DNA of 64,000 nucleotides from an uncultured Alphaproteobacteria bacterium (GCA_944391515.1 CALXTW010000001.1:1378-65377), one strand, 5' to 3'. Numbered from the stretch's first letter, positions 25,958 to 56,518 are shown. A program made the numbers and translations. Notes: generated by a model not told the origin, from the sequence alone.

Positions 25958-26448
25958 TGGAACAACATTTTAGAAAAAATGCAGGTGTGGTTGTTTTTAA
26001 TGCACAAAAAAAAGTTTTGATGTGTCGTAGAATTGTCCCTCAAACAGATGGTTGGCAATTTCCTCAAGGAGGAATCGAAGCGAGAGAAACACCTCTACAA
26101 GCTGCTCAAAGAGAATTGTTTGAAGAAACTTCTATTGAATCCATCGTGGCGGTTAAAACGCTTGATTATGCCTTACGTTATGAATTTCCGGAAAGCGTTA
26201 AGCAAAAATTTCGCGCAAGAGGAATTGTAAGTGACGGACAAGATCAATATTGGTCATTATTCTATTTTACCGGTAAAGACAGCGAAATTAACCTTCACAC
26301 AGCTGAGCCTGAATTTGATGAATTTGCTTGGAAAGATATTGAAGAAGCGCCCGACTTGGTTTGGGAGGTAAAAAAAGACGTCTATACCAAAATGGTAAAA
26401 GAATTTAAACCGATTATTGATAGTTTTGATGTAAAAAAGCCTCTTTGA
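25957..26448 (+). CDS. rppH: RNA pyrophosphohydrolase (Nudix)
   Basis: Nudix box GGIEARETPLQAAQRELFEETSI. 163 aa. Confidence 0.8.
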   Translation: MEQHFRKNAGVVVFNAQKKVLMCRRIVPQTDGWQFPQGGIEARETPLQAAQRELFEETSIESIVAVKTLDYALRYEFPESVKQKFRARGIVSDGQDQYWSLFYFTGKDSEINLHTAEPEFDEFAWKDIEEAPDLVWEVKKDVYTKMVKEFKPIIDSFDVKKPL

Positions 26449-29117: not shown

Positions 29118-29137
29118 TAAATTATCTTCTTTAATTT

Positions 29138-29236
29138 GAGGTGGAGGACGAATGACCTTAACCTTATTCGTTACGGCTGCTTCCTTCCGGACCTGACCGG
29201 GTTGGCGAAGGGCTAACCCAACGTCCTCCTTTAGAC
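29138..29236 (-). ncRNA. ffs: Signal recognition particle RNA (4.5S/SRP RNA)
   Basis: Minus-strand sequence ACCCGGUCAGGUCCGGAAGGAAGCAGCC matches the universally conserved SRP RNA domain IV motif. It is enclosed by a long closing stem (ggaggacg/cgtcctcc). A local GC island. The classic position immediately upstream of dnaX. Confidence 0.75.
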
Positions 29237-35837: not shown

Positions 35838-36263
35838 TTATGAATTTTCATCACAAGCCAACGCAACTTTATGAACTGCCGATAATTCAAACGGATAGAG
35901 GCGAATTTTTTTTATTTTTGTGCCTAAGAGGGTGATTTTTTCATCTTGAGGCAGGCGTTCTATTTCTTCTAAATTGTTTGTTAATTCAATAACTAAGGAT
36001 ATTTTGGTTTGTTCTTTATGGGGCATTTTAACAATACCTATCCCCCTCACCTCAAGCAAGCCTTGAATTGTTTGAGGGCAAGTGGCGACAACTTCCCCAG
36101 AAATAAGCTCTACATCTGTTCGGTCATCCGCAATTAATTTGGCTTGCTTTTCTTTAATTAAGCGTAGAGCTAGGTCAGATTTTCCGCTTCCTGAAGGACC
36201 TATGAGGAGTATTCCTTTATGGTTTAGCTCAAGACAGGTTGCGTATATATTTTCCATCATCAA
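35838..36263 (-). CDS. hprK: HPr kinase/phosphorylase, short alphaproteobacterial form (C-terminal domain only)
   Basis: P-loop GILLIGPSGSGKSDLAL. LEVRGIGIV signature. 141 aa. Confidence 0.8.
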   Translation of the reverse strand: MMMENIYATCLELNHKGILLIGPSGSGKSDLALRLIKEKQAKLIADDRTDVELISGEVVATCPQTIQGLLEVRGIGIVKMPHKEQTKISLVIELTNNLEEIERLPQDEKITLLGTKIKKIRLYPFELSAVHKVALACDENS

Positions 36264-36266
36264 ACC

Positions 36267-36713
36267 TTATAAAGAGCTAAAGCGCGCAAGGCGTTGCTCA
36301 TCTTTGCTCTCGAGCGTAATTTTCCGGCCGTTACCGCAAGGCGTGATATTTATTTTTATGCAATTCCTCGGTAAATATCCACCCATTTTTTCCGGCCACT
36401 CAATCAAACAGACACCGCAAGCCATTGCCTCCTCCATATTCAACTCAAATATCTCTTCGGCTGATTTGAGGCGGTATAAGTCATAGTGGTATATCTCAAA
36501 GTCCGGCGCATCATAAGTTTGCAATAAAGTAAAGGTTGGGCTAGGGACTTCTTCGGCTGCTGTTAAACTTTGGATGAATGCACGAGCAAAAACCGATTTC
36601 CCCATACCCAAAGTTCCAAATAAAGCAAAGACATCACCTGGTTTGGCAAGAGCGGCAAATTTTTGTGCCAATTTCTCGGTTGCTTCAATATTCGGGCAGA
36701 TAAAGTCTGTCAT
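36267..36713 (-). CDS. tsaE: tRNA threonylcarbamoyladenosine biosynthesis ATPase TsaE
   Basis: GDVFALFGTLGMGKSVFARAFI P-loop. HYDLYRL motif. 148 aa. Confidence 0.8.
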   Translation of the reverse strand: MTDFICPNIEATEKLAQKFAALAKPGDVFALFGTLGMGKSVFARAFIQSLTAAEEVPSPTFTLLQTYDAPDFEIYHYDLYRLKSAEEIFELNMEEAMACGVCLIEWPEKMGGYLPRNCIKINITPCGNGRKITLESKDEQRLARFSSL

Positions 36714-36716
36714 TTT

Positions 36717-37715
36717 TTATATTCCAAATATGTTATCGCGACGTTTTTTAGGTTTGATTACTTTGATTTTTGGTTTTTGTGCTTGAAGTGCACGCCAGTC
36801 TTCGGGCATATAGAATTTTCCTTGCCAGAGACCATGGCCGTTTCTTTGAGCTTGTTGCTGATATGGCATATAAATATCCGTATATTTGGTGTAAGCAACC
36901 GCCCATCCGGCATTAACCAATGCGGCACCCAAGTCATATTGCCCTAAAGAACAAGTTCCGACCATATTGCCCTTTTCGTCTTGTTGCATAATGTGACAAG
37001 TTAAAGGATTATCTCCTATCCAGCCTTTAAGCCATAAAGCTGCCTGACGACCGCAATTATATGAACGACCGCTCTTATCGGCACAGGTTTGGCTGATTTC
37101 AGGTGCATCAATACCATATAATTTGAAGTAACGACCTTGGATTTGCAAGGTATCACCGTTCATAACTTTGGCCGAACTTCTAAATGTCGGCAAGGCATTC
37201 ATATCAATCCCTTGATTTTGCGGAGCAGATTGAGCCCCTCCACCAATGGCATTCATAAACTGTTGGAAAGAGCTAACTTGAGGTTCTTGCGCCGGAGCAG
37301 GTTGATTATTAGCCGGTTGAGAATTGAAATTTTCTCCTAAAGGCGGCAATTCCCCATCTAAAAGCTGAACTTGAGCATTTGCTTGAGGGGCTTGTCCTTG
37401 ACCTGACATAGCAAAATTTTGAGAACGTCCTAAAAAGCTTTGTAAATTTTTACCAATGCCGTTAAATCCGTCCTTAAATGCGCCAATAGCATAAAGAATA
37501 AAAGCTATAACACCAATTACGGCAATAAAAGAAGGAATACATCCCATGGCGCGCCAGGCCATTTTGGTAAAGATATACAAGGCTATCAAACCAATGATTA
37601 AACCTATAAAACCGCCGCCTTGTAACACCAGATTACTGCTTTGTGTGCCACTGCCTCCAACAAGTATTAATATCAGTGCACCCATTCCCCATAAAAACTT
37701 TTTCAGAAACAGCAT
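36717..37715 (-). CDS. Membrane-anchored thermonuclease (SNase-like) domain protein with a Q/P/A-rich linker
   Basis: N-terminal TM helices. Low-complexity linker (QGQAPQANAQ...NNQPAPAQEPQ). C-terminal GDTLQIQGRYFKLYGIDAPE...CSLGQYDLGAALVNAGWA matches the staphylococcal nuclease fold. Confidence 0.6.
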   Translation of the reverse strand: MLFLKKFLWGMGALILILVGGSGTQSSNLVLQGGGFIGLIIGLIALYIFTKMAWRAMGCIPSFIAVIGVIAFILYAIGAFKDGFNGIGKNLQSFLGRSQNFAMSGQGQAPQANAQVQLLDGELPPLGENFNSQPANNQPAPAQEPQVSSFQQFMNAIGGGAQSAPQNQGIDMNALPTFRSSAKVMNGDTLQIQGRYFKLYGIDAPEISQTCADKSGRSYNCGRQAALWLKGWIGDNPLTCHIMQQDEKGNMVGTCSLGQYDLGAALVNAGWAVAYTKYTDIYMPYQQQAQRNGHGLWQGKFYMPEDWRALQAQKPKIKVIKPKKRRDNIFGI

Positions 37716-37941
37716 CTTTGTCTTCCCTCAAGTTAAATTTGTTTTATTAGAACATATCTCTTATTAAAAATCTATTATATTTTTATCATCCTTTCGTAAA
37801 GATATCGTTAGTTTTTACCTTTTTCATTGATTTTAATTTTACGCCTGATTTTTTGCCCTTACAGGGGATTTACTCCTTTTTATGTATACTTTATTAAAAA
37901 AATTTAAATCACACCCTCATTGCTCATTTTTCAAAGGCACA

Positions 37942-37972
37942 AAAAAGCGGGAGATTTGCTCCCGCTTTTTTA
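37942..37972 (-). terminator. Bidirectional rho-independent terminator after parB
   Basis: aaagcgggag atttg ctcccgcttt flanked by A/T runs on both sides. Confidence 0.45.
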
Positions 37973-37992: not shown

Positions 37993-39027
37993 CTAATCTA
38001 TAACCTTAATTGAAAATTTTTCATTGGAAACTGTTGTCGGGGTGACAGGTTCTGATGGCTGAAAGCCCAGACTGTGACGCTCATTCGACTTCTTTTGTTC
38101 CAAAATATCTATAATCATATCCAATTCGGCCGGAGAGGCATATTGTAATACAACCTTACCGCCGCCTTGTTTGCTTGGTGATATTTTAATTCTTAAACCA
38201 AGATTTTTGTTTAAGTCTTTTTCTATGTCCACCAAGTCATTATCTTTGGGTGTTTTTGCTTGAGGCTCTTTTTTGCCTTCTTTTTGTTTGGCAACCAACT
38301 CCTCAACCTGTCGAACACTCAAATCTTTTGATATTATTTGGTTTGCCAAGGCTTCGGCATTTTCTAATCCAACCAAAGCTCTGGCATGACCAGCGCTCAA
38401 TTTGCCTTCTTTTACCAGATGCTGTACTTTTTCAGGAAGATTAAGCAAACGAAGCGTATTTGCAATATGGCTTCTGGATTTACCAATGATTTGCGACAAA
38501 GCCTCTTGCGTGTGCGCAAACTCGTCGATTAATCTTTGTAATCCTTCCGCCTCTTCTATTGCCGACAGATTTTCTCTTAACAAGTTTTCAACTAAAGCCA
38601 CCTCTAAGACTTCTTTATCAGATAAGTCTTTTTCTATGACCGGAACTTTGTCAAGTCCTGCCAATTTTGATGCACGCCAACGGCGTTCACCGGCAATGAT
38701 TTCATACCCTATTCCCGTACGACGAACCAATAATGGTTGCAAGACGCCTTTTTCTTTAATGGAATCGGCAAGAGATTGCAGCGCCTCTTCATCAAACTCC
38801 GTACGCGGTTGAAATTTTCCGGGTTGGAGTAAATCTATATCTACTAAATTTGAACCCGATAAATTCGGTGCCAGTGATGATAAATCTTCATTTTCATTCA
38901 TATCCAAATCGTCATCACCCAAAAGAGCTCCTAAACCTCTACCTAAGCTCTTACGCTTATGAGAATGATTATCCGACGTTTCAATATTATTCAGCATTTT
39001 ATCTATTTCTTTTTCTTCTTCTAGCAT
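37993..39027 (-). CDS. parB: Chromosome partitioning protein ParB
   Basis: ParB box GERRWRASKLAGL and an HTH region. 344 aa. Confidence 0.9.
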   Translation of the reverse strand: MLEEEKEIDKMLNNIETSDNHSHKRKSLGRGLGALLGDDDLDMNENEDLSSLAPNLSGSNLVDIDLLQPGKFQPRTEFDEEALQSLADSIKEKGVLQPLLVRRTGIGYEIIAGERRWRASKLAGLDKVPVIEKDLSDKEVLEVALVENLLRENLSAIEEAEGLQRLIDEFAHTQEALSQIIGKSRSHIANTLRLLNLPEKVQHLVKEGKLSAGHARALVGLENAEALANQIISKDLSVRQVEELVAKQKEGKKEPQAKTPKDNDLVDIEKDLNKNLGLRIKISPSKQGGGKVVLQYASPAELDMIIDILEQKKSNERHSLGFQPSEPVTPTTVSNEKFSIKVID

Positions 39028-39800
39028 GCCATTAATTCCTTCTCTCTTTTCAATACTTCGCCGGTTAAACTAATATATGCTTGGGAGCCGGGGCATTTGA
39101 AATCATAAATCAAAACCGGTTTGCCGTGCGATGGTGCTTCGGAAATTCTGACATTCCGCGGAATAACGGTTTGATAAACCTTTTTACCAAAGAAACTTCT
39201 AACATCATCTTCTACCATTTGAGTCAAATTATTGCGTTTGTCATACATGGTGAGAACGACACCTTGTAATTCAAGTTTCGGATTAAATTTCTTTTTGATT
39301 TGGTTGATGTTGCGAATTAAATCGGTGATACCTTCAAGCGCTAAAAACTCGCATTGCAAAGGCACGATAACGGCATCAGCAGCAACAAGCGCATTTATCG
39401 TAACCAAACTCAATGAAGGAGGGCAATCTATTAATATATAGTCATAATTAACAGCGTCTCTTTGCAGAGCTTTTTTTAGTGCAAATTCACGATTGTCAAT
39501 TTCTACCAATTCAACCTCGGCACCTGCCAAATCAGGCGAAGATGGCACGAGAGAAAAATTAGGAATCTCTGTCCAGACAACAGCCTCAGAAATTCTTTTT
39601 TCGCCAAGCAAAACTTCATAAGAAGAAGCCATACGTCCACTCTTATTAATGCCCATTGAGGTGGTGGCGTTTCCTTGCGGATCCAAATCAACTACCAGTA
39701 CTTTCTTTCCGGCGGCAGCCATAGCTGTTGCAACATTTACCGTCGTGGTCGTTTTACCAACTCCGCCTTTACGGTTGGCAATGGCAATAATTCTTGGCAT
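39021..39800 (-). CDS. parA: Chromosome partitioning ATPase ParA
   Basis: Deviant Walker A IANRKGGVGKTTT. 259 aa. Upstream of parB. Confidence 0.9.
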   Translation of the reverse strand: MPRIIAIANRKGGVGKTTTTVNVATAMAAAGKKVLVVDLDPQGNATTSMGINKSGRMASSYEVLLGEKRISEAVVWTEIPNFSLVPSSPDLAGAEVELVEIDNREFALKKALQRDAVNYDYILIDCPPSLSLVTINALVAADAVIVPLQCEFLALEGITDLIRNINQIKKKFNPKLELQGVVLTMYDKRNNLTQMVEDDVRSFFGKKVYQTVIPRNVRISEAPSHGKPVLIYDFKCPGSQAYISLTGEVLKREKELMAC

Positions 39801-40426
39801 TATTTAACTCCTTTAAGTTTTGCTAATTTGGTTATGACTAAAATGACACCCTCTGACGAAGTTTCGCTCGGGTGAATTTGACACTCAAAACGCCAATGTT
39901 TTTTGGCTTCATCAATTTCTTCTTGATACTTTTTACCTTTGGGAAAAATACATATCGTATCTTTTTTACAAAATGGATATGTATATTCCAACAAATCTTT
40001 CAAAGATGTCATCGCTCGTGAAGTAACAACATCAACTTTGTTTTTGGGAAGCGATTCGATTCTTTGATTGAGAATTTCAACATTTACAGAACAAATTTCC
40101 GACACATGTTTTAAATACAGTGTTTTTTTATTAATACTTTCAATCAAGCTTACTTTTAAATACGGTGTTTTTTCTGCAGCCATAATTGCCAACACCATTC
40201 CGGGGAAACCAGCGCCAGACCCAAAGTCATAAAGGTTTTGCGCTGATTGAGGAATATATTTAAAAAGCTGCATCGAGTCGATAAAGTGACGATTCCACGC
40301 ATCTTCTAAAGAGGATTTACTTACCAAGTTAAACTTATTTTGCCACTCTTGGAGAGAGGTTTCATAAGCTCTTAACTTGAGCATTGTTTCACGTGAAACA
40401 TCATATTTTTGCATTTCGTTTTCCAT
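39800..40426 (-). CDS. rsmG: 16S rRNA (guanine527-N7)-methyltransferase
   Basis: DFGSGAGFPGMVLAI SAM motif. GidB family. Synteny with parAB. Confidence 0.85.
   Translation of the reverse strand: MENEMQKYDVSRETMLKLRAYETSLQEWQNKFNLVSKSSLEDAWNRHFIDSMQLFKYIPQSAQNLYDFGSGAGFPGMVLAIMAAEKTPYLKVSLIESINKKTLYLKHVSEICSVNVEILNQRIESLPKNKVDVVTSRAMTSLKDLLEYTYPFCKKDTICIFPKGKKYQEEIDEAKKHWRFECQIHPSETSSEGVILVITKLAKLKGVK
40110..40123 (+). repeat. Copy of the 14-bp motif TTTAAATACAGTGT (inside rsmG)
   Basis: Exact match. Encodes TLYLK in rsmG. Confidence 0.8.
40155..40168 (+). repeat. Copy of the 14-bp motif, G variant TTTAAATACGGTGT (inside rsmG)
   Basis: One substitution. Encodes TPYLK. Lies 32 nt from the previous copy. 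Confidence 0.8.
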
Positions 40427-40568
40427 ACAAAAATTTATATATTTTTTATAAAAAATTTAAAAGATTTTTATATGAGTTATAAACACATTATTTAAGCAAT
40501 TTTAAAATTATTTTAAATTCAATTAGATAATCATCTATATTGAATCTGTACCTTAATATTTTAAGATT

Positions 40569-40582
40569 TTTAAATACAGTGT
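40569..40582 (+). repeat. Copy of the 14-bp motif TTTAAATACAGTGT (intergenic, rsmG promoter region)
   Basis: Exact match in a non-coding AT-rich spacer. Confidence 0.8.
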
Positions 40583-40586
40583 TTTG

Positions 40587-41387
40587 TTATAAAGACCAGC
40601 GTTTTGCGGTGTTTAATTGCACTAATAAATCCTCCGCCTCGCCAAAATATTGCCCAAGCTGTGAAACAGAATGTGCATCATCGCTTATCAGCAACGGAAT
40701 ATCATTTTTTACCAAATCTTCCATAATCCAGCGGGCAGGGTAGAATGAGCCGATAGAGTTTTTTCCTTTGGTGTTAATTTCGGTCGGCATTTTTTGTACT
40801 TTTAATGCGGTTACGATTCCTTTAATCTCATCAACAAAATCATATTCACCAATAACACCACTCCAGCGGGCGAAATCAATATGAGCTAAAAAGGTAAATT
40901 CACCACTTTCAACAGCTTCACAAATATTATTAAAATGATTACGAAAAAGCTCTTTTATTTTTGTTTCAGACAATCCATATCTCTGAAAATGATAAATCTC
41001 ATAAACCTCTGTTCCGTCTTTATTGGTTACCTGGTGGTTACCGTTTATGAGATAATCAACATCTATCTTTTGCTTAAACTCTCTAAACTCATCCAGCCAA
41101 CCTGGAATTGGAAAATAATCAACCTCAAAACCGGCATAAACTTTAATTTCGGGATTTTCTTCACCAACTTGTCTTATGGCGGCAATATGCTTTTTTACCG
41201 GCTCTAGAGCCTCTTTAAATGATGAAAAATAGGTATATCCTTTGCTCAAAGTTGGATGTATGCTCAAGTGATCGCTAATTCCAATAGCTCTCCAACCCAA
41301 CTTTTTGGCTTGGGCAACCATTTCCGAAATGCTGTTTTTACCATCAGAAAAGGTTGTATGCGTGTGAAGAGAAAAATTTTGTATCAT
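40587..41387 (-). CDS. PHP-domain phosphoesterase (histidinol-phosphatase-like family)
   Basis: LHTHTTFSDG...IGISDH... N-terminal PHP motifs and downstream His/Asp ligands. Translationally coupled to the upstream HD genes. Confidence 0.7.
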   Translation of the reverse strand: MIQNFSLHTHTTFSDGKNSISEMVAQAKKLGWRAIGISDHLSIHPTLSKGYTYFSSFKEALEPVKKHIAAIRQVGEENPEIKVYAGFEVDYFPIPGWLDEFREFKQKIDVDYLINGNHQVTNKDGTEVYEIYHFQRYGLSETKIKELFRNHFNNICEAVESGEFTFLAHIDFARWSGVIGEYDFVDEIKGIVTALKVQKMPTEINTKGKNSIGSFYPARWIMEDLVKNDIPLLISDDAHSVSQLGQYFGEAEDLLVQLNTAKRWSL

Positions 41388-42001
41388 CTCTTTATTCCTA
41401 AAACCTCGTAACTATCGCAATCACATTTATTATCAATATATGTTTTAAGTTTAAATACACCGTTTTTTAGGGTATTTTGCTGCAATTCATTTAGATTATA
41501 CCTTTGAGTTATTCCTGCTATGCGATTTTCTAATGATGTAATTTCCATTCCTTCAAAAAACATATCAGCATATTGGACTATTCGGTCGTAGTCGTCATAC
41601 GTTATATTTTTCAGCAATGTTCTGCATTCTTCCAACCAATGTGGGGGGTATGAAAAATCTTCATTTGAAAAATTCTTATCTTTAAAAGTATGGGTTAAAC
41701 AGATTTTAGCAACATCGGGATAACCATATTCTAATAAGTCATAGTAACCTATTACACCGTGAAATCTATCGTCTTGCTTTTCATCAATTCTCTTTCCGTA
41801 ATCGTGAAGCAGTCCTAAGGCAAAAGCCTTATCTCCATTTAAGCCCATTTTATTTGCTAATCGCGATGAAAAATCGGCAACACCACGTGAGTGAAAAATA
41901 TATTCTTTATCAATTTGCGGGGTTTTTGTTTGATGTTCTCTAGAATAATTTATACCATCTTGCCAAATTTTTTCTGCTTCCTCTTTTGTTGGATAATTCA
42001 T
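41384..42001 (-). CDS. HD-domain phosphohydrolase, paralog 1 (YqeK/HDIG-like)
   Basis: H...HD metal motif (FHSRGVA...LGLLHDYGK). ICLTHTF motif. Conserved C-terminus KCDCDSYEVLGI. Confidence 0.65.
   Translation of the reverse strand: MNYPTKEEAEKIWQDGINYSREHQTKTPQIDKEYIFHSRGVADFSSRLANKMGLNGDKAFALGLLHDYGKRIDEKQDDRFHGVIGYYDLLEYGYPDVAKICLTHTFKDKNFSNEDFSYPPHWLEECRTLLKNITYDDYDRIVQYADMFFEGMEITSLENRIAGITQRYNLNELQQNTLKNGVFKLKTYIDNKCDCDSYEVLGIKR
41442..41455 (+). repeat. Variant copy TTTAAATACACCGT (inside HD paralog 1)
   Basis: The first 9 nt are identical. The second half is the inverted complement of the GGTGT variant. Confidence 0.5.
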
Positions 42002-42621
42002 TATTTTATTCCCAACAATTCATAAATGTTGCAATTACATTTTGCATTAAAATACAACAGTCGATTTTTGATGATATTTGAAAATTGTCTTATCTGATCT
42101 TGACTTATTGGATAACGGTTCGCCAAAGATGAAAAGCGATATTCTATTGTACAATCTGTTCCCATGTCGTTTAGAATGTCTGTTAGTTGAATTAAATAAT
42201 CATAATCATTATATTCAATTTGAGATAAAAACTTCAAACATGAGGAAATATCATCATTACAAACATTATCGCTTTTTACTTCAAAACCTTTTTCATAAAA
42301 ATTATGAGTGATACAAATTCGAGCTATATCGCTCCAACCTTTTGAGCTCATTAACTGATAACCAATCCAGCTATGATGACGATTTTCGGCTTTTTCATCT
42401 CTGATACGTCCACAGTCGTGCAGCAATCCCATTACAAAACAAAGCTCAGGATTCATATCAGATGTGCGAGAGGCTATTTTTTGAGCGTTTTTTGCAACTT
42501 TATTACAGTGCTCTCTAAATGTTTTTTCCCATTCTGGCAAAAAAGGGTAGGGGCTTGAATTGCGCTCTTTGATGACATATTCAAAAAAATCTTCTGCTTC
42601 ATTGATATTTGGATAAGACAT
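42001..42621 (-). CDS. HD-domain phosphohydrolase, paralog 2
   Basis: MGLLHDCGRIRDE, ICITHNF, C-terminus KCNCNIYELLGIK. Start set at MSYPNINEAE by alignment to paralog 1. The ORF track extends to 42672. Confidence 0.6.
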   Translation of the reverse strand: MSYPNINEAEDFFEYVIKERNSSPYPFLPEWEKTFREHCNKVAKNAQKIASRTSDMNPELCFVMGLLHDCGRIRDEKAENRHHSWIGYQLMSSKGWSDIARICITHNFYEKGFEVKSDNVCNDDISSCLKFLSQIEYNDYDYLIQLTDILNDMGTDCTIEYRFSSLANRYPISQDQIRQFSNIIKNRLLYFNAKCNCNIYELLGIK

Positions 42622-42622
42622 T

Positions 42623-43246
42623 TTAATTAACTCCGAGAAGTTTATAAATATCGCAGCCGCATTTGGCATCAAAATAGCTTTTCAACTTAAGAGCTTCGCG
42701 ATATTTTTTCTTTAATTGCACTGTCGGAATTTTATAGGCGTTTTGCAGATATTTCATCCGCTCTTTGAGATTATAGTTTACGCCGATTGATAGTCTGTCA
42801 CAAAGTTGAATCAGGCGGTCGTAATCATCAAAAGGAACTTCTTGTATTAGTTTACGACATTTTCTCATTTCTGAGGGATTGTATGAAGCATATTCTTTTA
42901 TATTGAGCTCTTGCTCATAAAAAGTATGCGTCAAACAGATACGAGCAAGTTCATCATAACCAAGTTTGTTTAGTGCTTTATATCCCTCTAAGCCATGAAA
43001 TTTATCTGAGCGTTCATAATCATAGGTGAGTTTGCCGTAGTCATGAAATAATCCCATAATATAGGCTTTTTGACCATCAATTTCAGGCAAGCGTGAGGCT
43101 ATCATTTCGGCACAAACAGCCACCATCGCAGAGTGGATTCTGAAGTTTTTGGCAATACCAAACTCAAAACGTGAAGATTGCTCACAGCGTTGTTTTAAGG
43201 TTTGTTCAAAAAGTTTCAGAGCTTCTTGCATGGTTGGCATCGTCAT
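42623..43246 (-). CDS. HD-domain phosphohydrolase, paralog 3
   Basis: MGLFHDYGKLT, ICLTHTF, C-terminus KCGCDIYKLLGVN. The start is 4 nt after the mnmG stop. Confidence 0.65.
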   Translation of the reverse strand: MTMPTMQEALKLFEQTLKQRCEQSSRFEFGIAKNFRIHSAMVAVCAEMIASRLPEIDGQKAYIMGLFHDYGKLTYDYERSDKFHGLEGYKALNKLGYDELARICLTHTFYEQELNIKEYASYNPSEMRKCRKLIQEVPFDDYDRLIQLCDRLSIGVNYNLKERMKYLQNAYKIPTVQLKKKYREALKLKSYFDAKCGCDIYKLLGVN

Positions 43247-43249
43247 AGC

Positions 43250-45106
43250 TCACCTCTTTACATAGCCCAAAATTGCAGTTATAGCCGCAGGAGTTACTCC
43301 CGGAATGCGAGATGCTTCTCCTATGGTTGCAGGACGAACTCGAGATAGTTTTTGCACCATTTCACGAGATAAGCCACCGATTTTGGCATAATCAATATCT
43401 TCTCTGATTTTGAGTTTTTCGTCTTTTTGGAAGACTTCAATATCGGCTTGTTGTCTTTTTAGGTATCCTGAATATTTGGCTTCAATCTCAATTTCTTCAT
43501 AAACATCATTGGGAATATTTTGCAACTGCGGCCAGAGAAGGTTGATTGTTTCACGTGAAACACCGTCATAAGACATTACATTGAACGCCGTTCTCTTGGT
43601 GCCGTCACGTTTGGTTTTTATGCCATATTCTTCTAGCTTGTTCGGGTTGATTGTCAAGCTCTCACAAAGCTCACGATATTTATTAATTGCATCGGATTTG
43701 GCTTTAAATACAGTGTATCTTTTTTCACTGACACAGCCAACATTATGGCCAAGTTCGGTTAAACGCAAGTCAGCATTATCTGCTCGCAGCAATAAACGAT
43801 ATTCTGAGCGAGAGGTAAACATACGATAAGGTTCATCAACACCTTGGGTAATTAAGTCATCTACCATAACACCGATATAGGCTTGGCTGCGGTTAATGGT
43901 GAATTTACGTCCTTTGCCCTCGGCATAAAGCGCGGCATTTACACCGGCAAGAAGTCCTTGTGCTGCGGCTTCCTCATAACCGGTCGTACCATTGATTTGT
44001 CCGGCTAAAAACAAGCCTGATACTTTTTTGGTTTCTAGCGTGTTGGTTAGTTCTTGCGGGTCAACATAGTCATATTCAATCGCATAAGCATAACGCAAGA
44101 TTTCAACATCTTCCAAACCCTCAATGGTATGAATAAATTGTTCTTGAACATCGGCCGGCAAGGAGGTTGATATTCCGTTTGGATAAACAACGTCCGTGTT
44201 CAAACCTTCCGGTTCCAAAAAGATTTGATGGCTGGTTCGGTCAGCAAATTTTACCAATTTATCTTCAATACTTGGGCAATATCTTGGACCAACACCTTTG
44301 ATTAACCCTGAAAACAAAGCGCATTTCGAGAAGTTATCTCGGATGATTTTGTGTGTTTTCTCATTTGTATGGGTTATATAACACTGTATTTGCGGATTGG
44401 TGATTTCTTTGGTTAGATAAGAAAAGGGTTGCGGAGGATAATCACCATCTTGGGTATCCAATTTTTCCCAATGTATGGTTTTGCCATTCAAACGGGCAGG
44501 GGTTCCGGTTTTGAGACGACCGACTTTTAGGCCTTTTTGCTTTAAATACGGTGTTATACCTGTGCAGCTTACATCGCCAATTCGGCCACCAATAGAGGTT
44601 TCGTGTCCAACAAACATTACACCGTTTAAGAATGTGCCTGAAGTCAGAACGACGGCTTGGGCTGAGATTTCGCTTCCGTCAGCTAAGATTACACCGGTGA
44701 CTTTATCGCCCTCAAAAAGCAATCCTTCAACAGCGGCTTCAAGAATAGTCAGATTGCTTTGCGCTTGCAAAGCTTCTAACATATATTTTTTATATAATTC
44801 TCGGTCGGCTTGCGCACGCGGGCCTCTAACAGCCGGTCCTTTAGATTGGTTTAGCATACGGAATTGAATACCGCCTTTATCAATCACTCTGCCCATTAAG
44901 CCATCTAAAGCATCAATCTCTCTGACCAAGTGACCTTTGCCAAGTCCCCCAATTGCCGGATTGCATGACATGGCGCCAATGGTGTCAATTTTGTGTGTGA
45001 TGAGCAAAGTGTTTGCTCCGGTTCTGGCCGCTGCGGCGCAGGCTTCACATCCGGCATGTCCGCCGCCAACGACAATTACATCATATTTTTTATTATTGTT
45101 CTTCAT
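43250..45106 (-). CDS. mnmG: tRNA uridine 5-carboxymethylaminomethyl modification enzyme MnmG (GidA)
   Basis: FAD motif [15 protein letters not shown] and conserved GidA core throughout. 618 aa. Confidence 0.95.
43703..43716 (+). repeat. Copy of the 14-bp motif TTTAAATACAGTGT (inside mnmG)
   Basis: Exact match. Encodes YTVFKA. Confidence 0.8.
44541..44554 (+). repeat. Copy of the 14-bp motif, G variant TTTAAATACGGTGT (inside mnmG)
   Basis: Encodes TPYLKQ in a different reading frame from the copy at 43703. Confidence 0.8.
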
Positions 45107-45245: not shown

Positions 45246-45623
45246 TTAGAAAACGTGATTTTCAACACAATATTGCCAGTAGTCATAAACTTTTTCTCGC
45301 GGTAATACAGCCGGGCAAAGGATAACAACCGAAAAAATATAACGCCAGCAAAGATAGCGATTGTAAGCACAAAAATCTTTGTTGTTCATCAGATAAGTTG
45401 CTCTATCTTGTAACCAATATCTAAGGTTTGAAATTTCTTCCTTATACATTACTGGGTATGAAGAAAATGCAAAACCTGATTCTTTACTTCTTTGGCAGAG
45501 TTTCTGAAATGCTTCCCGGATTTTTTGAGTGAGCCCTTCTTCATTTTTCAAAAGTTCTTCTTCGGAAAAAACACTAATTCGATTGGTGATGAGTTTTTCC
45601 AATCCGTCTGAATAATTTTCCAT
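45246..45623 (-). CDS. Hypothetical protein (125 aa) inserted between mnmE and mnmG
   Basis: Intact ORF followed by the hairpin aaccgctc-tttt-gagcggtt at 45205-45228, with a T-run in the minus-strand sense. No known motif. Confidence 0.4.
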   Translation of the reverse strand: MENYSDGLEKLITNRISVFSEEELLKNEEGLTQKIREAFQKLCQRSKESGFAFSSYPVMYKEEISNLRYWLQDRATYLMNNKDFCAYNRYLCWRYIFSVVILCPAVLPREKVYDYWQYCVENHVF

Positions 45624-45715: not shown

Positions 45716-47131
45716 TTACTTGCCGATACAAAATGAACCAAAGATTTTATCCAAGATATCATCCACTTCGATACGGCCGGTGATTTTTCCTAATCCACGG
45801 GCGGCCATACGGATGTCTTCGGCGGCAAGCTCAATCTCTTTTTGCAGATTAAAAGCCTGCAGAGCCTCTAATGTTTCATTTAGTGCTTCTCTGTAACGAG
45901 CACGCGTTATCAGCAAATTAGAATTTGATGTAAAGCGGCTTTCAATTTGAGTAGTGATTGCGTTTAAGAGTTTTTCCAAACCTTCTTTGGGTTTGGCGGC
46001 AATAACTATGCAGCCGCTGTTTACTAATTCTTGTCTTGTATCTTCGGAAATGCAATCAGCCTTATTGGCAACAAAAAGCATTTTATCAGAAATTGTTTTT
46101 TTAAGATTATCAAAGATGTGAACACTGTCTTGTGAGGCATCAAATAAACATAATACCAAGTCGGCTTCTTTGATTTTATCATAAGCAATTTCTATTCCGC
46201 GTTTTTCAATAGCGTCTTCAACTTCTCTTAAACCGGCCGTGTCGGTAAACATTACCGGATAGCCTTTTAGGTCTAAATGAACATCAACAGCATCACGCGT
46301 GGTGCCGGCTATATTTGAAACTATCGCCGCCTCGCGATTGACAATCGCATTTAATAAGCTCGACTTTCCGGCATTGGGAGGGCCAACAATTACAACCCTA
46401 AAACCTTCTCTTAGGCGCTCACCAATATTATCTCCTTTTAGGTGTTCGGAGATTTTATGTGCAAGTTTAAATACAGTGTCCTCAAGTTTAAATACAGTGT
46501 CTTGAGGAATATCTTCATCAGGAAAATCAATATAAGCCTCCAGATAAGCCATAACCTGCAAGAGTTCTTCACGCCAACCTTCATAAAGATTTTTTAATCC
46601 GCCTTCCATTTGGCGCATGGCATATTTTTGCTGTTCAGAGGTTTCGGCATCTATCAAGTCTGCCAATCCTTCTGCCTGAGTTAAATCCATTTTGCCGTTA
46701 TAAAAAGCGCGTTTGGAATATTCACCCGGTTCGGCCAGACGATAACCTTCTATCTGACTTAATGAGGCAAGGACTCCGGAAATTACGGCCTTGGAGCCGT
46801 GAATCTGTAATTCGACGATATCTTCTCCCGTGAAAGAATATGGTGCCTTAAAATACAAAACCAGGCTTTTATCAAGTAATCTTTTTTCAGGCAAAGAATA
46901 AATATTGGTAAAATAGGCATAACGGGCTTTGATTGTATCAACTTTAATGTCCGTCATCTGTTCTATGACCTTGAGAGCTTTGTCTCCGGAAATTCGAATA
47001 ACCGCTACTCCTGATTTTCCAAATACGGTCGATAGAGCATAAATTGTTTTGTTATCCATTTTTTTATCCTGTTTGATTTTGATTTGGGCTGAATATAACA
47101 CAAAATTCTTAAAAAAACAGCAAATTCTCAT
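45716..47131 (-). CDS. mnmE: tRNA modification GTPase MnmE (TrmE)
   Basis: G1 GPPNAGKSSLLN. G3 DTAGLR. C-terminal FCIGK. Contains an in-frame tandem DTVFKLE/DTVFKLA repeat encoded by the 21-bp duplication. Confidence 0.9.
   Translation of the reverse strand: MRICCFFKNFVLYSAQIKIKQDKKMDNKTIYALSTVFGKSGVAVIRISGDKALKVIEQMTDIKVDTIKARYAYFTNIYSLPEKRLLDKSLVLYFKAPYSFTGEDIVELQIHGSKAVISGVLASLSQIEGYRLAEPGEYSKRAFYNGKMDLTQAEGLADLIDAETSEQQKYAMRQMEGGLKNLYEGWREELLQVMAYLEAYIDFPDEDIPQDTVFKLEDTVFKLAHKISEHLKGDNIGERLREGFRVVIVGPPNAGKSSLLNAIVNREAAIVSNIAGTTRDAVDVHLDLKGYPVMFTDTAGLREVEDAIEKRGIEIAYDKIKEADLVLCLFDASQDSVHIFDNLKKTISDKMLFVANKADCISEDTRQELVNSGCIVIAAKPKEGLEKLLNAITTQIESRFTSNSNLLITRARYREALNETLEALQAFNLQKEIELAAEDIRMAARGLGKITGRIEVDDILDKIFGSFCIGK
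46462..46503 (+). repeat. 21-bp direct tandem duplication (caagtttaaatacagtgtcyt x2), each unit carrying the 14-bp motif, inside mnmE
   Basis: Units at 46462-46482 and 46483-46503. Motif copies at 46466-46479 and 46487-46500. Encodes the in-frame DTVFKLE/DTVFKLA repeat. Confidence 0.85.
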
Positions 47132-55120: not shown

Positions 55121-56518
55121 ATGGATAAATCTGGTTTAAAAAAAGTTTGGGCTGATAAATTTAGTCATGTTCCTCAGGTTTTGGAAAATGTGAAAAAAGT
55201 TAGTTCGGCGGCAACGGCTTTTAATGCAAATATTGATGCCGTTCTTAAAATTAAAGGTTCTAAAATTGCTGAGTTGGCACAAGCCTCCGGTTTGAATTTG
55301 AAAAAACTTTCCGAAACGGGAAATAATAAACTTTTATTCGGAAGCGATGTGATTAAAGGTATTTTTAAGTGCTTTACCAGAGGTATTGCCGAAGAGTGGT
55401 TGACCGAAGATAAAATTGTTTTTGATTGGATGGTTCAACATTTGGGATATGACCGCTTGCAAATGGGTGGACAAGGTGGAATCGTTGCCAATGTTTTGGC
55501 CGTGGTCGGTGTGAATAAAGTTTTTGCTCATGCGAACTCTTTACCAAAACTCCAAGCTGAACAATTTTTGAAGTTGGATAATTTGGTATCTTTTGATGAT
55601 GAAGGAAAAGAAAAACCTGCTTACCTGATTGATAGAAATGGAGATATTCCTTTGATTCACTGGATTATTGAATTTGATAAAGGGGATAGCTTTACTTTTG
55701 AGGGGGAAACTTTTGTTTGCCCAAAATCTAACCGATTTATTGCAACTTATGACCCGTTGAATTTGCATTTGGTGATGGATAAAAGCTTTGTTGAAGCAAC
55801 CACTATCCAAAAAATGGATTATGTGATTTTGTCGGGTTTTCATGCCTTAACCAAGCAAAATGACGGGGTTAACCTTATTAAGAAATCTTTGCCGATTATT
55901 GAAAATTGGAAAGAAAATGGTGATATTGTCCATTTGGAAATTGCTTCTACTCAAGATATAGCCGTGCGTAAAGCTATTGTTGATGAAGTTGCTTCAAAAG
56001 TTGATTCTGTCGGAATTAATGAGCGCGAAGCTATTGATGTTTTGGAAGTTATCGGTTGTGAAGATTTGGCTCAAAAGTGTAATGAAGATACACATAGCAA
56101 AAATTTGTTTGAGGCGCTATTGGCGATTAAAAGCAAACTTAAAACGCCTCGAATCCAACTTCATATGTTTGGTTTGTATATGACCTTGCAAGATAAAGGT
56201 TTCAAAATTACACCTGAGGCTAATTTAAGGGGTATGATGTTGGCTGCAACCATTGCTGCCAGCAAGGCCGGAACTGGAAATATTCATAATAAAGAAAACC
56301 TTTTATGGGCTCATGGGCAAAAAGTTGCCGATGTGGGATTAGATGAGTTAGCTGATTTGGCAGAATTGCTTAAGTCTCCGACTTTGCTTGAAACAGGTAT
56401 AACTGAAGTTGAGGGTTATGATTTGATTGCTTTGCCGACAATCTTGGTTGAAAAACCTTTAACCTTGGTGGGTATGGGAGATACTATCTCTTCTTTATCG
56501 CTCATTGGGGCTAGATAA
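55121..56518 (+). CDS. ADP-dependent sugar kinase family protein (ADP-glucokinase/phosphofructokinase-like, ribokinase superfamily)
   Basis: QMGGQGGIVANVLA (GG..A.AN motif). VHLEIAST (HxE[F/I]AS motif). GINEREAID (NExE motif). C-terminal GMGDTISS (GxGD anion hole). Confidence 0.6.
   Translation: MDKSGLKKVWADKFSHVPQVLENVKKVSSAATAFNANIDAVLKIKGSKIAELAQASGLNLKKLSETGNNKLLFGSDVIKGIFKCFTRGIAEEWLTEDKIVFDWMVQHLGYDRLQMGGQGGIVANVLAVVGVNKVFAHANSLPKLQAEQFLKLDNLVSFDDEGKEKPAYLIDRNGDIPLIHWIIEFDKGDSFTFEGETFVCPKSNRFIATYDPLNLHLVMDKSFVEATTIQKMDYVILSGFHALTKQNDGVNLIKKSLPIIENWKENGDIVHLEIASTQDIAVRKAIVDEVASKVDSVGINEREAIDVLEVIGCEDLAQKCNEDTHSKNLFEALLAIKSKLKTPRIQLHMFGLYMTLQDKGFKITPEANLRGMMLAATIAASKAGTGNIHNKENLLWAHGQKVADVGLDELADLAELLKSPTLLETGITEVEGYDLIALPTILVEKPLTLVGMGDTISSLSLIGAR

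What the first reader, a model, noticed from the sequence alone, without database searches (positions are those of the whole stretch)
40587..43246. Translationally coupled cassette of three tandem HD-domain paralogs plus a PHP phosphoesterase, inserted into the conserved mnmG-rsmG junction
In most bacteria mnmG (gidA) is followed directly by rsmG (gidB). Here four genes are inserted between them and are co-transcribed with mnmG. Stop/start spacings are 4, 1, 1-nt overlap and 4-nt overlap.

The three HD proteins are about 205 aa each and are clear paralogs. They share H..LHD(Y/C)G(K/R), IC(L/I)THTF and a conserved C-terminal KCxCxxYxxLG(I/V). They are YqeK/HDIG-like small phosphohydrolases.

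The fourth gene is a PHP-domain (HTHTxFSDG) phosphoesterase.

A triplicated nucleotide-phosphohydrolase set plus a PHP enzyme welded to the tRNA-modification/ribosome-methylation operon is unusual. It could be a nucleotide-signal, NpnN or cyclic nucleotide degradation module.
Basis: partly seen in the sequence, partly recalled or inferred. Interest (0 to 1): 0.62.

Follow-up and report, generated by a model that had tools for sequence, protein, structure and literature searches.

The report
HD hydrolase trio plus PHP phosphatase
An uncultured gut alphaproteobacterium carries three old, diverged copies of an uncharacterised metal-dependent phosphohydrolase and a histidinol-phosphatase-like enzyme between two normally adjacent housekeeping genes; the cassette is real and conserved in its relatives, but its substrate is unknown and it is only moderately unusual.

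Summary
On the minus strand, mnmG (43250-45106) is followed by three HD-domain genes of 207, 206 and 205 aa, then a 266-aa PHP gene, then a 160-nt spacer and rsmG-parA-parB.

The three HD proteins are ancient paralogs, 32-36% identical. Each has its own orthologs in related genomes. All are under purifying selection and keep an H/HD/H/H/D motif set.

They belong to an uncharacterised HDIG-like subfamily. They fail the YqeK model and have no close solved structure. The PHP protein has a complete nine-residue metal site and folds like HisJ/HisK histidinol-phosphate phosphatases.

The cassette is conserved in a clade of uncultured gut Alphaproteobacteria, but its content varies: PHP alone; one to three HD genes with zero to two PHP genes; HD-HD fusions; or added NUDIX and MurA-like genes. 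Elsewhere, mostly in Clostridia, the HD gene stands alone.

Fusion partners and neighbours (NUDIX, NT5C, DHH, a nucleoside-phosphorylase-like gene) point to nucleotide-derivative hydrolysis. The substrate is unknown. Interest is moderate to low.

The parts
43250..45106 (-). mnmG (gidA), first gene of the transcription unit that carries the cassette
   Evidence: 618-aa ORF. Pfam GIDA, GIDA_C_1st and SAM_GIDA_C on the identical gene in L001. A terminator-like hairpin lies just upstream at 45229-45206.
42623..43246 (-). HD1, a 207-aa HD-domain phosphohydrolase; the slowest-evolving paralog, always in first position
   Evidence: PF01966 E 9e-11. Invariant H38, H68-D69, H84, H107, D141, D143. Positional orthologs in L100, L101, L091, L092, L098 and L011. 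dN/dS 0.02. AF2 model pLDDT 93.
42001..42621 (-). HD2, a 206-aa HD-domain paralog; the most divergent subtype (HDCGR / THNF / NDYD)
   Evidence: PF01966 E 3e-8; HDIG TIGR00277 28.3 bits against cutoff 27.6. Same subtype in L100, L101 and the C-terminal half of the L102 fusion. dN/dS 0.06.
41384..42001 (-). HD3, a 205-aa HD-domain paralog; last-position lineage
   Evidence: PF01966 E 3e-12. 116 homologs at E<=1e-3. Groups with the last-position HD genes of relatives and with the NUDIX-linked HD genes of L095 and L096. dN/dS 0.09.
40587..41387 (-). PHP-domain phosphoesterase of the HisJ/HisK (histidinol-phosphatase) class, 266 aa
   Evidence: PF02811 E 1e-17. TIGR01856 87.8 bits against cutoff 90.2. 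Invariant H8, H10, D15, H40, E88, H118, H169, D237, H239. AF2 pLDDT 95.6. Foldseek TM 0.81-0.83 to T. thermophilus histidinol-phosphate phosphatase 2yxo.
40427..40586 (-). AT-rich spacer between PHP and rsmG; no terminator-like hairpin; possible internal promoter
   Evidence: Sequence. One search lists only weak promoter-like matches here and no terminator. A spacer of similar size is present in relatives.
39800..40426 (-). rsmG (gidB), the downstream flank of the slot
   Evidence: Pfam GidB on the identical gene in L001, where the gene caller uses a start 12 nt downstream.
43547..43562 (.). perfect parS palindrome inside the 3' part of mnmG, upstream bracket of the cassette
   Evidence: Exact TGTTTCACGTGAAACA. 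Conserved in L095, L098, L100, L101, L103 and L104.
40385..40400 (.). perfect parS palindrome at the 5' end of rsmG, downstream bracket of the cassette
   Evidence: Exact TGTTTCACGTGAAACA. Conserved in all relatives that include rsmG.
37941..37971 (.). strong hairpin flanked by A and T runs after parB; likely end of the mnmG-...-parB transcription unit
   Evidence: 13-bp stem with 6 GC pairs and a T run. It is the first terminator-like site downstream of mnmG that lies outside coding sequence.

Best explanation
The cassette encodes cytosolic metal-dependent phosphohydrolases that act on nucleotide-derived compounds. The role is housecleaning or salvage, not signalling.

The three HD proteins are anciently diverged paralogs of one uncharacterised HDIG-like subfamily. 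Their H/HD/H/H/D motif pattern is the one seen in binuclear HD enzymes. I infer that they cleave a phosphoanhydride or phosphodiester bond in one or more nucleotide derivatives. They either have split substrate ranges or work as a hetero-oligomer; natural HD-HD fusions exist in relatives. The HisJ-class PHP enzyme would then remove a remaining phosphomonoester.

The four genes ride on the mnmG promoter through translational coupling, inside the origin-proximal mnmG-rsmG-parAB unit.

Shown here:
- gene structure and family membership at superfamily level;
- conserved ligand motifs and purifying selection;
- clade-wide conservation with variable content;
- nucleotide-related fusion partners and neighbours.

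Inferred:
- the binuclear metal site;
- the bond type cleaved;
- any HD-PHP cooperation or hetero-oligomer;
- co-transcription with mnmG.
For: - All 23 aligned family members, including the three window copies, keep H38, H68-D69, H84, H107, D141 and D143.
- The PHP metal site is complete.
- dN/dS is 0.02-0.11 for all four genes.
- Junctions of 3 nt, 1 nt, -1 nt and -4 nt, with no terminator between mnmG and parB.
- Positional orthologs of each paralog lineage exist in other genomes.
- Two independent HD-HD fusions sit directly downstream of mnmG, or in the same slot (L102, L103).
- Nucleotide-metabolism partners of this HD domain:
  - NUDIX fusions in three proteins, an NT5C fusion and a DHH-DHHA2 fusion;
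  - a NUDIX gene next to HD in L095, L096/L097 and L103;
  - a thymidine/AMP-phosphorylase-like gene translationally coupled to HD in L047.
- HD and PHP genes are interleaved or co-amplified in L103 (HD-PHP-HD~HD-PHP) and L011 (HD-PHP-PHP).
- The closest solved sequence relatives are YqeK-type nucleotide hydrolases (E 8.5e-7).
Against: - No substrate is known for any member. There is no curated family and no close structure: Foldseek best E 0.036, TM <=0.45.
- The most frequent fusion partner is GNAT acetyltransferase, in 7 of 20 proteins. Others (SUKH, peptidase S51, GDSL, tyrosine phosphatase) are not nucleotide enzymes.
- HD and PHP are separable: three HD genes without PHP in L101, PHP alone in L104.
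- In about 70 non-alphaproteobacterial loci the HD gene has no conserved neighbour, and PHP lay nearby only once.
- The PHP protein looks most like genuine histidinol-phosphate phosphatases, which would be unrelated to nucleotides.
- Metal nuclearity is inferred from motif order only.
Confidence: 0.4

Rival explanations
1. There is no joint module. The PHP gene is simply the organism's histidinol-phosphate phosphatase (histidine biosynthesis), which has long occupied the mnmG-rsmG slot in this clade. The HD genes are unrelated accessory hydrolases that later landed in the same permissive, well-expressed slot.
For: - PHP alone, overlapping the mnmG stop codon, fills the slot in L104, the most distant relative sampled (mnmG 73% identical). 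That PHP protein is recorded on 49 contigs.
- Sources name homologs 'histidinol-phosphatase (HisJ family)'.
- The structure model matches T. thermophilus, Listeria and L. lactis histidinol-phosphate phosphatases best, TM 0.74-0.83.
- TIGR01856 scores 87.8 bits, just under the 90.2 cutoff.
- L101 keeps three HD genes without PHP.
- Slot content is very plastic: NUDIX, MurA-like and azoreductase-like genes appear in L095 and L103.
Against: - All HisJ-family curated cutoffs are missed.
- The N-terminal HTHTxFSDG resembles PolX-type PHP domains.
- Two PHP paralogs per slot in L011 and L103, interleaved with HD genes, is odd for a single-step biosynthetic enzyme.
- L101 lacks the gene and in L095 it appears split.
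- No his genes lie within 10 kb on either side.
Confidence: 0.2
2. The HD proteins are signal-nucleotide hydrolases: functional analogs of YqeK (Ap4A/NpnN), or cyclic (di)nucleotide phosphodiesterases like PgpH or HD-GYP. PHP degrades the product.
For: - The best solved sequence match is the YqeK-type Ap4A hydrolase SP1746 (E 8.5e-7).
- The motif pattern H/HD/H/H/D is that of binuclear HD phosphodiesterases and YqeK (general knowledge of the superfamily, e.g. PMC8177086 listed).
- The top Foldseek neighbours include HD-GYP Bd1817, PgpH and YqeK.
- A DHH-DHHA2 fusion exists.
Against: - The YqeK equivalog model scores 14-17 bits against a cutoff of 70, with no hit for HD2.
- Only residues 18-78 align to YqeK.
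- TM is 0.33-0.45 to all of these structures.
- There is no GYP motif, no 7TM domain and no sensor domain.
- There is no nadD/rsfS context.
- The genome already encodes an RppH-type NUDIX that passes its curated cutoff (25957-26448). From general knowledge, that family hydrolyses NpnN in alphaproteobacteria.
- Three paralogs for one alarmone is not parsimonious.
Confidence: 0.15
3. The HD proteins are RNA-end healing enzymes (2',3'-cyclic phosphodiesterase and 3'-phosphatase) serving tRNA or rRNA. This would explain their place between a tRNA-modification gene and an rRNA methyltransferase gene. PHP acts as a further phosphatase or nuclease on RNA ends.
For: - The genes lie within mnmE-mnmG-...-rsmG.
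- One family member fuses the HD domain to a P-loop AAA_33 kinase (P0190). [quoted passage not shown]
- The PHP superfamily includes RNase AM. It appears in the hit list, but weakly.
Against: - Homology of this HD domain to the Runella HD-Pnk HD domain could not be tested; the paper and its sequence are not held.
- The kinase half of P0190 matches no solved polynucleotide kinase.
- Only 1 of 20 fusions has this architecture.
- No ligase, Tpt1 or RtcB gene lies nearby.
- The PHP protein is far closer to HisJ than to RNase AM, TM 0.8 against 0.41.
- Operon adjacency to mnmG and rsmG may be only positional.
Confidence: 0.1

Closest known systems
YqeK, HD-domain symmetrical Ap4A hydrolase of Firmicutes (TIGR00488; PDB 8jja/SP1746, 2o08, 2ogi, 8wmy)
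   Same: It is a small (about 190-215 aa) stand-alone, all-helical HD protein. It has an HDxxK-type HDIG motif and H...HD...H...H...D spacing. It is the best sequence match among solved structures (E 8.5e-7).
   Different: Only the first roughly 60 residues of the domain align. The curated model is missed by more than 50 bits. Structural overlap is poor, TM 0.33-0.41. The C-terminal half differs (DDYDxLIQ and a C-terminal CGxDhY...LG tail). The genomic context differs: no nadD-yqeK-rsfS. Here the gene is present as three ancient paralogs.
HisJ/HisK PHP-family L-histidinol-phosphate phosphatases (TIGR01856; PDB 2yxo, 3dcp, 4gyf)
   Same: The window PHP protein has the same fold (TM 0.74-0.83, rmsd 2.5-3.9 A), the same length, and a complete PHP metal-ligand set. 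Homologs are named histidinol-phosphatase by NCBI and JGI.
   Different: Sequence identity is 18-22%. It lies below every curated HisJ cutoff. Its N-terminal motif is HTHTxFSDG, as in PolX-type PHP domains. It is not in a his context. It is duplicated in some relatives and missing in one.
Binuclear HD phosphodiesterases of the HDIG group (PgpH c-di-AMP phosphodiesterase 4s1b; HD-GYP Bd1817 3tm8; HDOD 3hc1)
   Same: These are among the top structural neighbours (probability 0.91-0.99). HDOD (PF08668) gives secondary Pfam hits.
   Different: TM is only 0.3-0.45. There is no GYP motif, no 7TM or receiver domain, and no close sequence similarity.
HD-Pnk (Runella slithyformis), an HD 2',3'-phosphoesterase fused to a polynucleotide kinase
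   Same: One member of this HD subfamily (P0190) has the same HD plus P-loop kinase architecture. The HD-Pnk description comes from PMC6097658.
   Different: The window proteins have no kinase domain. Homology to the Runella HD domain is untested. No ligase or Tpt1 gene lies nearby.
gidA-gidB-parA-parB (mnmG-rsmG-parAB) origin-proximal operon
   Same: The flanking genes and their order are the canonical ones. A paper found (PMC13438810) describes gidAB-parAB as one DnaA-regulated operon in Pseudomonas aeruginosa. parS sites cluster here.
   Different: In this clade, 0.8-6 kb of hydrolase genes is inserted between mnmG and rsmG and lies between two conserved perfect parS sites.

Membership tests
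HD superfamily (Pfam PF01966) | Score above the Pfam gathering cutoff (22 bits) | tested here: met
   42.5, 34.4 and 47.4 bits for HD1, HD2 and HD3.
HD superfamily (Pfam PF01966) | Conserved H...HD...D metal-ligand motifs | tested here: met
   H38, H68-D69, H84, H107, D141 and D143 are invariant in 23 sequences, including all three window paralogs, and in 25 slot HD domains. Which residues bind metal is inferred from motif order.
HDIG domain (TIGR00277) | Score above the curated cutoff of 27.6 bits | tested here: inconclusive
   25.1, 28.3 and 26.1 bits. Only HD2 passes. The motif reads HD(Y/C)G(K/R).
YqeK Ap4A hydrolase (TIGR00488) | Score above the equivalog cutoff of 70.15 bits | tested here: not met
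   14.0 bits (HD1), no hit (HD2), 17.2 bits (HD3).
YqeK Ap4A hydrolase (TIGR00488) | Full-length structural and sequence correspondence to solved YqeK proteins | tested here: not met
   Only profile positions 18-78 align to 8jja. Foldseek gives E 0.3-0.6 and TM 0.33-0.41 to 2o08, 2ogi, 8jja and 8wmy.
YqeK Ap4A hydrolase (TIGR00488) | Symmetrical hydrolysis of Ap4A to ADP | not testable with these tools
   This needs an enzyme assay.
HD-GYP / PgpH cyclic-dinucleotide phosphodiesterases | GYP motif (HD-GYP), or an N-terminal 7TM receptor module (PgpH) | tested here: not met
   No GYP motif in the alignment. The proteins are 205-207 aa single-domain proteins. TM <=0.45.
PHP superfamily (PF02811) | Score above cutoff, plus the nine-residue trinuclear metal site (HxH, D/H, H, E, H, H, DxH) | tested here: met
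   65.1 bits against cutoff 26.4. H8, H10, D15, H40, E88, H118, H169, D237 and H239 are invariant in 22-26 homologs.
HisJ/HisK histidinol-phosphate phosphatase (TIGR01856, PRK07328, PRK08123) | Score above the curated cutoffs | tested here: inconclusive
   TIGR01856 87.8 against 90.2 bits (narrow miss). PRK07328 98.8 against 202. PRK08123 58.9 against 133.
HisJ/HisK histidinol-phosphate phosphatase (TIGR01856, PRK07328, PRK08123) | Same fold as solved histidinol-phosphate phosphatases | tested here: met
   Foldseek E 1.6e-15, TM 0.81-0.83 to 2yxo. TM 0.74-0.76 to 3dcp, 6nlr and 4gyf.
HisJ/HisK histidinol-phosphate phosphatase (TIGR01856, PRK07328, PRK08123) | Substrate-recognition residues for L-histidinol phosphate, and a role in the his pathway | not tested
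   The defining paper (Ghodge et al. 2013) is not held. No his genes lie within 10 kb on either side. The whole genome is not available.
HD-Pnk end-healing enzymes | HD phosphoesterase fused to a 5'-OH polynucleotide kinase, next to a ligase gene | tested here: not met
   The window proteins have no kinase domain and no ligase gene is nearby. Only one distant member, P0190, has HD plus AAA_33. Its kinase half matches no solved polynucleotide kinase. Homology to the Runella HD domain was not tested.
Known anti-phage defence systems (PADLOC) | A significant match to a defence-system protein model | tested here: not met
   Only weak Cas3-HD matches (E 3e-6 to 1e-2, 12-24 bits) to the generic HD motif. 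None for PHP. No phage homologs.

The most novel reading that the evidence does not exclude
The HD paralogs form a hetero-oligomeric hydrolase. The basis is their fixed gene order, translational coupling and natural HD-HD fusions. With PHP, this hydrolase would act as a metabolite-immunity module in gut bacteria. It would destroy a toxic nucleotide-type compound, such as an aminoacyl- or peptidyl-nucleotide antibiotic, or a phosphorylated or otherwise aberrant nucleotide sugar that poisons MurA.

This reading would explain several features:
- the recurrent fusions of this HD domain to RimL/RimJ-type GNATs, SUKH immunity domains, an S51 peptidase, P-loop kinase and NUDIX domains;
- the MurA-like and NUDIX genes in the same slot in L095 and L103;
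- the elevated divergence of the cassette between close relatives.
Probability: 0.08. Interest if true: 0.7.

Novelty: new variant of a known kind. Interest (0 to 1): 0.35.

Why it matters
If the reading is right, this defines a new, uncharacterised subfamily of HD phosphohydrolases. The subfamily has about 220 clusters (50% identity) at E<=1e-30. It is mostly found in gut Clostridia and in one gut alphaproteobacterial clade.

In that clade the family has expanded into fixed-order paralog arrays and fusions. That makes it a natural system for studying subfunctionalisation or hetero-oligomerisation in the HD fold.

It also shows that the supposedly invariant mnmG-rsmG junction is a permissive slot in one lineage. 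The slot is bracketed by two parS sites and accumulates hydrolase genes.

The practical value is modest: better annotation of 'HD domain-containing protein' and 'histidinol-phosphatase' calls in gut MAGs. It does not open a long-standing question unless the detoxification or hetero-complex reading proves true.

Tried and rejected
- **YqeK membership:** rejected. The curated score is far below cutoff and only the N-terminal motif aligns.
- **Defence system:** rejected. PADLOC gives only weak generic Cas3-HD hits and there are no phage homologs.
- **Mobile element or plasmid origin:** only 7 weak plasmid or chromid hits, all non-mobilizable. No integrase lies adjacent. GC content of 0.32-0.37 is similar to rsmG at 0.345.
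- **Recent tandem duplication:** rejected. The paralogs are 32-36% identical and each has orthologs elsewhere.
- **Pseudogenes or degenerate copies:** rejected by dN/dS of 0.02-0.11 and intact motifs.
- **C-terminal CxC as a metal or redox motif:** rejected as family-defining. It is not conserved outside close relatives.
- **Conserved neighbours of the HD gene outside the clade:** none found among about 70 loci. The apparent three-locus PHP cluster was L040 plus the two L011 genes.
- **Riboswitch or other RNA element:** Rfam finds only SRP RNA, elsewhere in the window.
- **HD-Pnk lead:** could not be tested. The paper is not held and P0190 matches no solved kinase.
- **HisJ specificity residues:** the paper is not held.


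Full report
**1. What is there**

On the minus strand the window reads as follows:

| Feature | Coordinates | Size |
|---|---|---|
| mnmE | 45716-47059 | |
| small unannotated ORF | 45246-45623 | 125 aa |
| mnmG | 43250-45106 | 618 aa |
| HD1 | 42623-43246 | 207 aa |
| HD2 | 42001-42621 | 206 aa |
| HD3 | 41384-42001 | 205 aa |
| PHP-domain gene | 40587-41387 | 266 aa |
| AT-rich spacer | 40427-40586 | 160 nt |
| rsmG | 39800-40426 | |
| parA | 39021-39800 | |
| parB | 37993-39027 | |

The junctions, read directly, are:
- HD1 to HD2: 1 nt;
- HD2/HD3: TAATG, a 1-nt overlap;
- HD3/PHP: ATGA, a 4-nt overlap.

Terminator-like hairpins lie after mnmE (45688-45651) and after the 125-aa ORF (45229-45206). 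The scan lists a few further short hairpins on this strand, but they have 5-bp stems and lie inside coding sequence. The next convincing one is after parB, at 37941-37971. The likely transcription unit is therefore mnmG-HD1-HD2-HD3-PHP(-rsmG-parA-parB). This is inferred from sequence and has not been shown.

The window matches metagenome contigs of up to about 160 kb from animal and human gut samples exactly. Named relatives are uncultured Alphaproteobacteria MAGs.

**2. The HD proteins**

All three match Pfam HD, with E from 3e-8 to 3e-12. They sit at the threshold of the HDIG domain model, scoring 25.1, 28.3 and 26.1 bits against a cutoff of 27.6. No curated NCBIfam family claims them. The YqeK equivalog scores 14-17 bits against a cutoff of 70.

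In an alignment of the three copies with 20 homologs, H38, H68-D69, H84, H107, D141 and D143 (HD1 numbering) are invariant. This H/HD/H/H/D pattern is the one found in binuclear HD enzymes such as YqeK, PgpH and HD-GYP. That comparison rests on general knowledge of the superfamily. The nuclearity here is inferred.

A profile search of PDB sequences finds YqeK-type Ap4A hydrolases first (8jja, E 8.5e-7). Only the N-terminal H..HD segment aligns.

The AlphaFold2 model of HD1 is confident (pLDDT 93, pTM 0.91) but has no close solved neighbour. The best Foldseek E-value is 0.036. TM is 0.30-0.45 to HDOD, HD-GYP Bd1817, PgpH and YqeK.

The family is modest in size. Among 1.84 billion representatives, 219 clusters (50% identity) match at E<=1e-30 and 731 at E<=1e-10.

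**3. The paralogs are old and all functional**

Pairwise identity among HD1, HD2 and HD3 is 32-36%. Each has positional orthologs elsewhere:
- a first-position lineage: HD1 with L100, L101, L091, L092, L098 and L011;
- a last-position lineage: HD3 with the last HD genes of those loci and the NUDIX-linked HD genes of L095 and L096;
- a fast-evolving HD2 subtype (HDCGR, THxF, NDYD), seen in L100, L101 and the C-terminal half of the L102 fusion.

Against the close relative L100, dN/dS is 0.02 for HD1, 0.06 for HD2, 0.09 for HD3 and 0.11 for PHP. None of them is decaying.

**4. The PHP protein**

It matches Pfam PHP at E 1e-17. It narrowly misses the HisJ-family model, at 87.8 bits against a cutoff of 90.2.

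H8, H10, D15, H40, E88, H118, H169, D237 and H239 are invariant in 22-26 homologs. This is the full PHP metal-ligand set.

Its model (pLDDT 95.6) superposes best on histidinol-phosphate phosphatases. TM is 0.81-0.83 to T. thermophilus 2yxo and 0.74-0.76 to the Listeria and L. lactis enzymes. PolX-PHP, YcdX and RNase AM are clearly worse. Sources that name homologs call them histidinol-phosphatase.

**5. Comparative context**

The mnmG-rsmG slot is occupied throughout a clade of gut Alphaproteobacteria whose mnmG is 73-99% identical to the window's. Its content varies:

| Locus | Slot content |
|---|---|
| window, L100, L091 | 3 HD + PHP |
| L101 | 3 HD, no PHP |
| L092, L098 | 2 HD + PHP |
| L011 | 1 HD + 2 PHP |
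| L104 (human gut) | PHP alone, overlapping the mnmG stop |
| L102 | HD~HD fusion directly after mnmG |
| L103 | NUDIX + MurA-like + HD + PHP + HD~HD + PHP + azoreductase-like gene on the opposite strand |
| L095 | NUDIX + MurA-like + a PHP that appears split + 2 HD |

The MurA-like protein scores below the MurA cutoffs, at 255 against 393 bits.

Outside this clade the HD family is found mainly in Lachnospiraceae, Clostridium, Butyrivibrio, Oscillospiraceae and Chloroflexi. There it is a single gene with no conserved neighbour and no link to mnmG or PHP.

**6. Functional leads**

I scanned 20 longer proteins that contain this HD domain. One of them (P0171) carries a second HD stretch and two show no partner domain. 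The partner domains in the rest are:
- GNAT acetyltransferase in 7;
- NUDIX in 3;
- one each of NT5C 5'-nucleotidase, DHH-DHHA2, AAA_33 P-loop kinase, tyrosine phosphatase (Y_phosphatase3), GDSL hydrolase, peptidase S51 and SUKH.

Gene neighbours in alphaproteobacterial MAGs include NUDIX in L095, L096/L097 and L103. In L047 a thymidine/AMP-phosphorylase-like gene is translationally coupled to the HD gene.

The nucleotide-related partners, the nearest solved relatives (YqeK) and the motif pattern together favour hydrolysis of a phosphoanhydride or phosphodiester bond in nucleotide derivatives.

The fixed gene order, the translational coupling and two independent HD-HD fusions make a hetero-oligomer, or split specificities, plausible.

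PHP may finish the job as a monoesterase. However, it is separable from the HD genes (L101, L104), and it looks most like a genuine histidinol phosphatase. I therefore give the joint-module reading only 0.4 and keep 'PHP is simply HisJ' as the main rival at 0.2.

The window also encodes an RppH-type NUDIX above its curated cutoff (25957-26448). That reduces the need for a dedicated Ap4A hydrolase.

There is no sign of a defence system, phage origin, mobile plasmid origin or an RNA element.

**7. Verdict**

- The proteins are HD/HDIG-like but are not YqeK.
- The PHP protein is of the HisJ class.
- The cassette is conserved across a clade but plastic, and has no known function.

This is a new variant within known enzyme superfamilies, not a new kind of system. 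A specialist would find the paralog array, the fusions and the parS-bracketed slot mildly interesting. Nothing here is strongly surprising. Interest 0.35.

Noticed in passing
window 40385-40400 and 43547-43562: Two perfect 16-bp parS palindromes (TGTTTCACGTGAAACA) bracket the cassette. One lies in the 5' end of rsmG and one in the 3' part of mnmG. Both are conserved in relatives whatever the slot content, and lie 1.2 kb apart in L104 and 6.8 kb apart in L103. The inserted genes therefore sit inside the ParB loading zone.
   Followed up: partly
window 40800-43200 against L100: The cassette is a divergence peak between close relatives. Nucleotide identity is 78-87% across it against 90-97% in mnmG, rsmG and parA. 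dS is 0.96-1.46 for the HD genes against 0.32-0.40 for the flanks. Recombination, or different constraints on synonymous sites, could explain this. It is unexplained.
   Followed up: partly
window 45246-45623 (-): A 125-aa ORF lies between mnmE and mnmG and has its own terminator-like hairpin (45229-45206). It has no Pfam or NCBIfam match. ORFs of 108-140 aa occupy the same position in all relatives but are only weakly similar to it.
   Followed up: partly
L103 2446-8706; L095 3468-8776: In more distant relatives the same slot also holds a weak-NUDIX gene and a divergent MurA-like enolpyruvyl transferase of 473-475 aa (in L103, 255 bits against the 393-bit MurA cutoff). An FMN azoreductase-like gene lies on the opposite strand. 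I could not determine whether the MurA-like gene is the genome's only murA.
   Followed up: partly
L102 929-2185; L103 6001-7236: Two independent natural fusions join two HD domains of this family into one protein of 411-418 aa. Both lie in the mnmG-downstream slot.
   Followed up: yes
window 55121-56518 (+): This ORF encodes an ADP-dependent phosphofructokinase/glucokinase family protein (PF04587, E 4e-68). It falls below the NCBIfam equivalog cutoffs. From general knowledge, this family is unusual in an alphaproteobacterium.
   Followed up: no
window 25957-26448 (+): An RppH-type NUDIX RNA pyrophosphohydrolase passes its curated cutoff (NF001938, 136 against 116 bits). It is relevant because, from general knowledge, this family hydrolyses dinucleoside polyphosphates in alphaproteobacteria.
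   Followed up: no
window 35838-37715 (-): Downstream of parB are three genes: a 332-aa protein with an apparently hydrophobic N-terminal part and a C-terminal SNase domain, then TsaE, then an HprK C-terminal-domain-only protein of about 140 aa. This order is conserved in all relatives.
   Followed up: no
window 29137-29232 (-): Bacterial small SRP RNA is the only Rfam match in the window (58.9 bits).
   Followed up: no
L047 6427-9415: In another alphaproteobacterial MAG the HD homolog overlaps both of its neighbours. Upstream is a thymidine/AMP-phosphorylase-like gene and downstream is a GFO_IDH_MocA oxidoreductase. In L012 the HD gene follows a Zn_protease / 7TM_transglut / ATP-grasp trio.
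   Followed up: no
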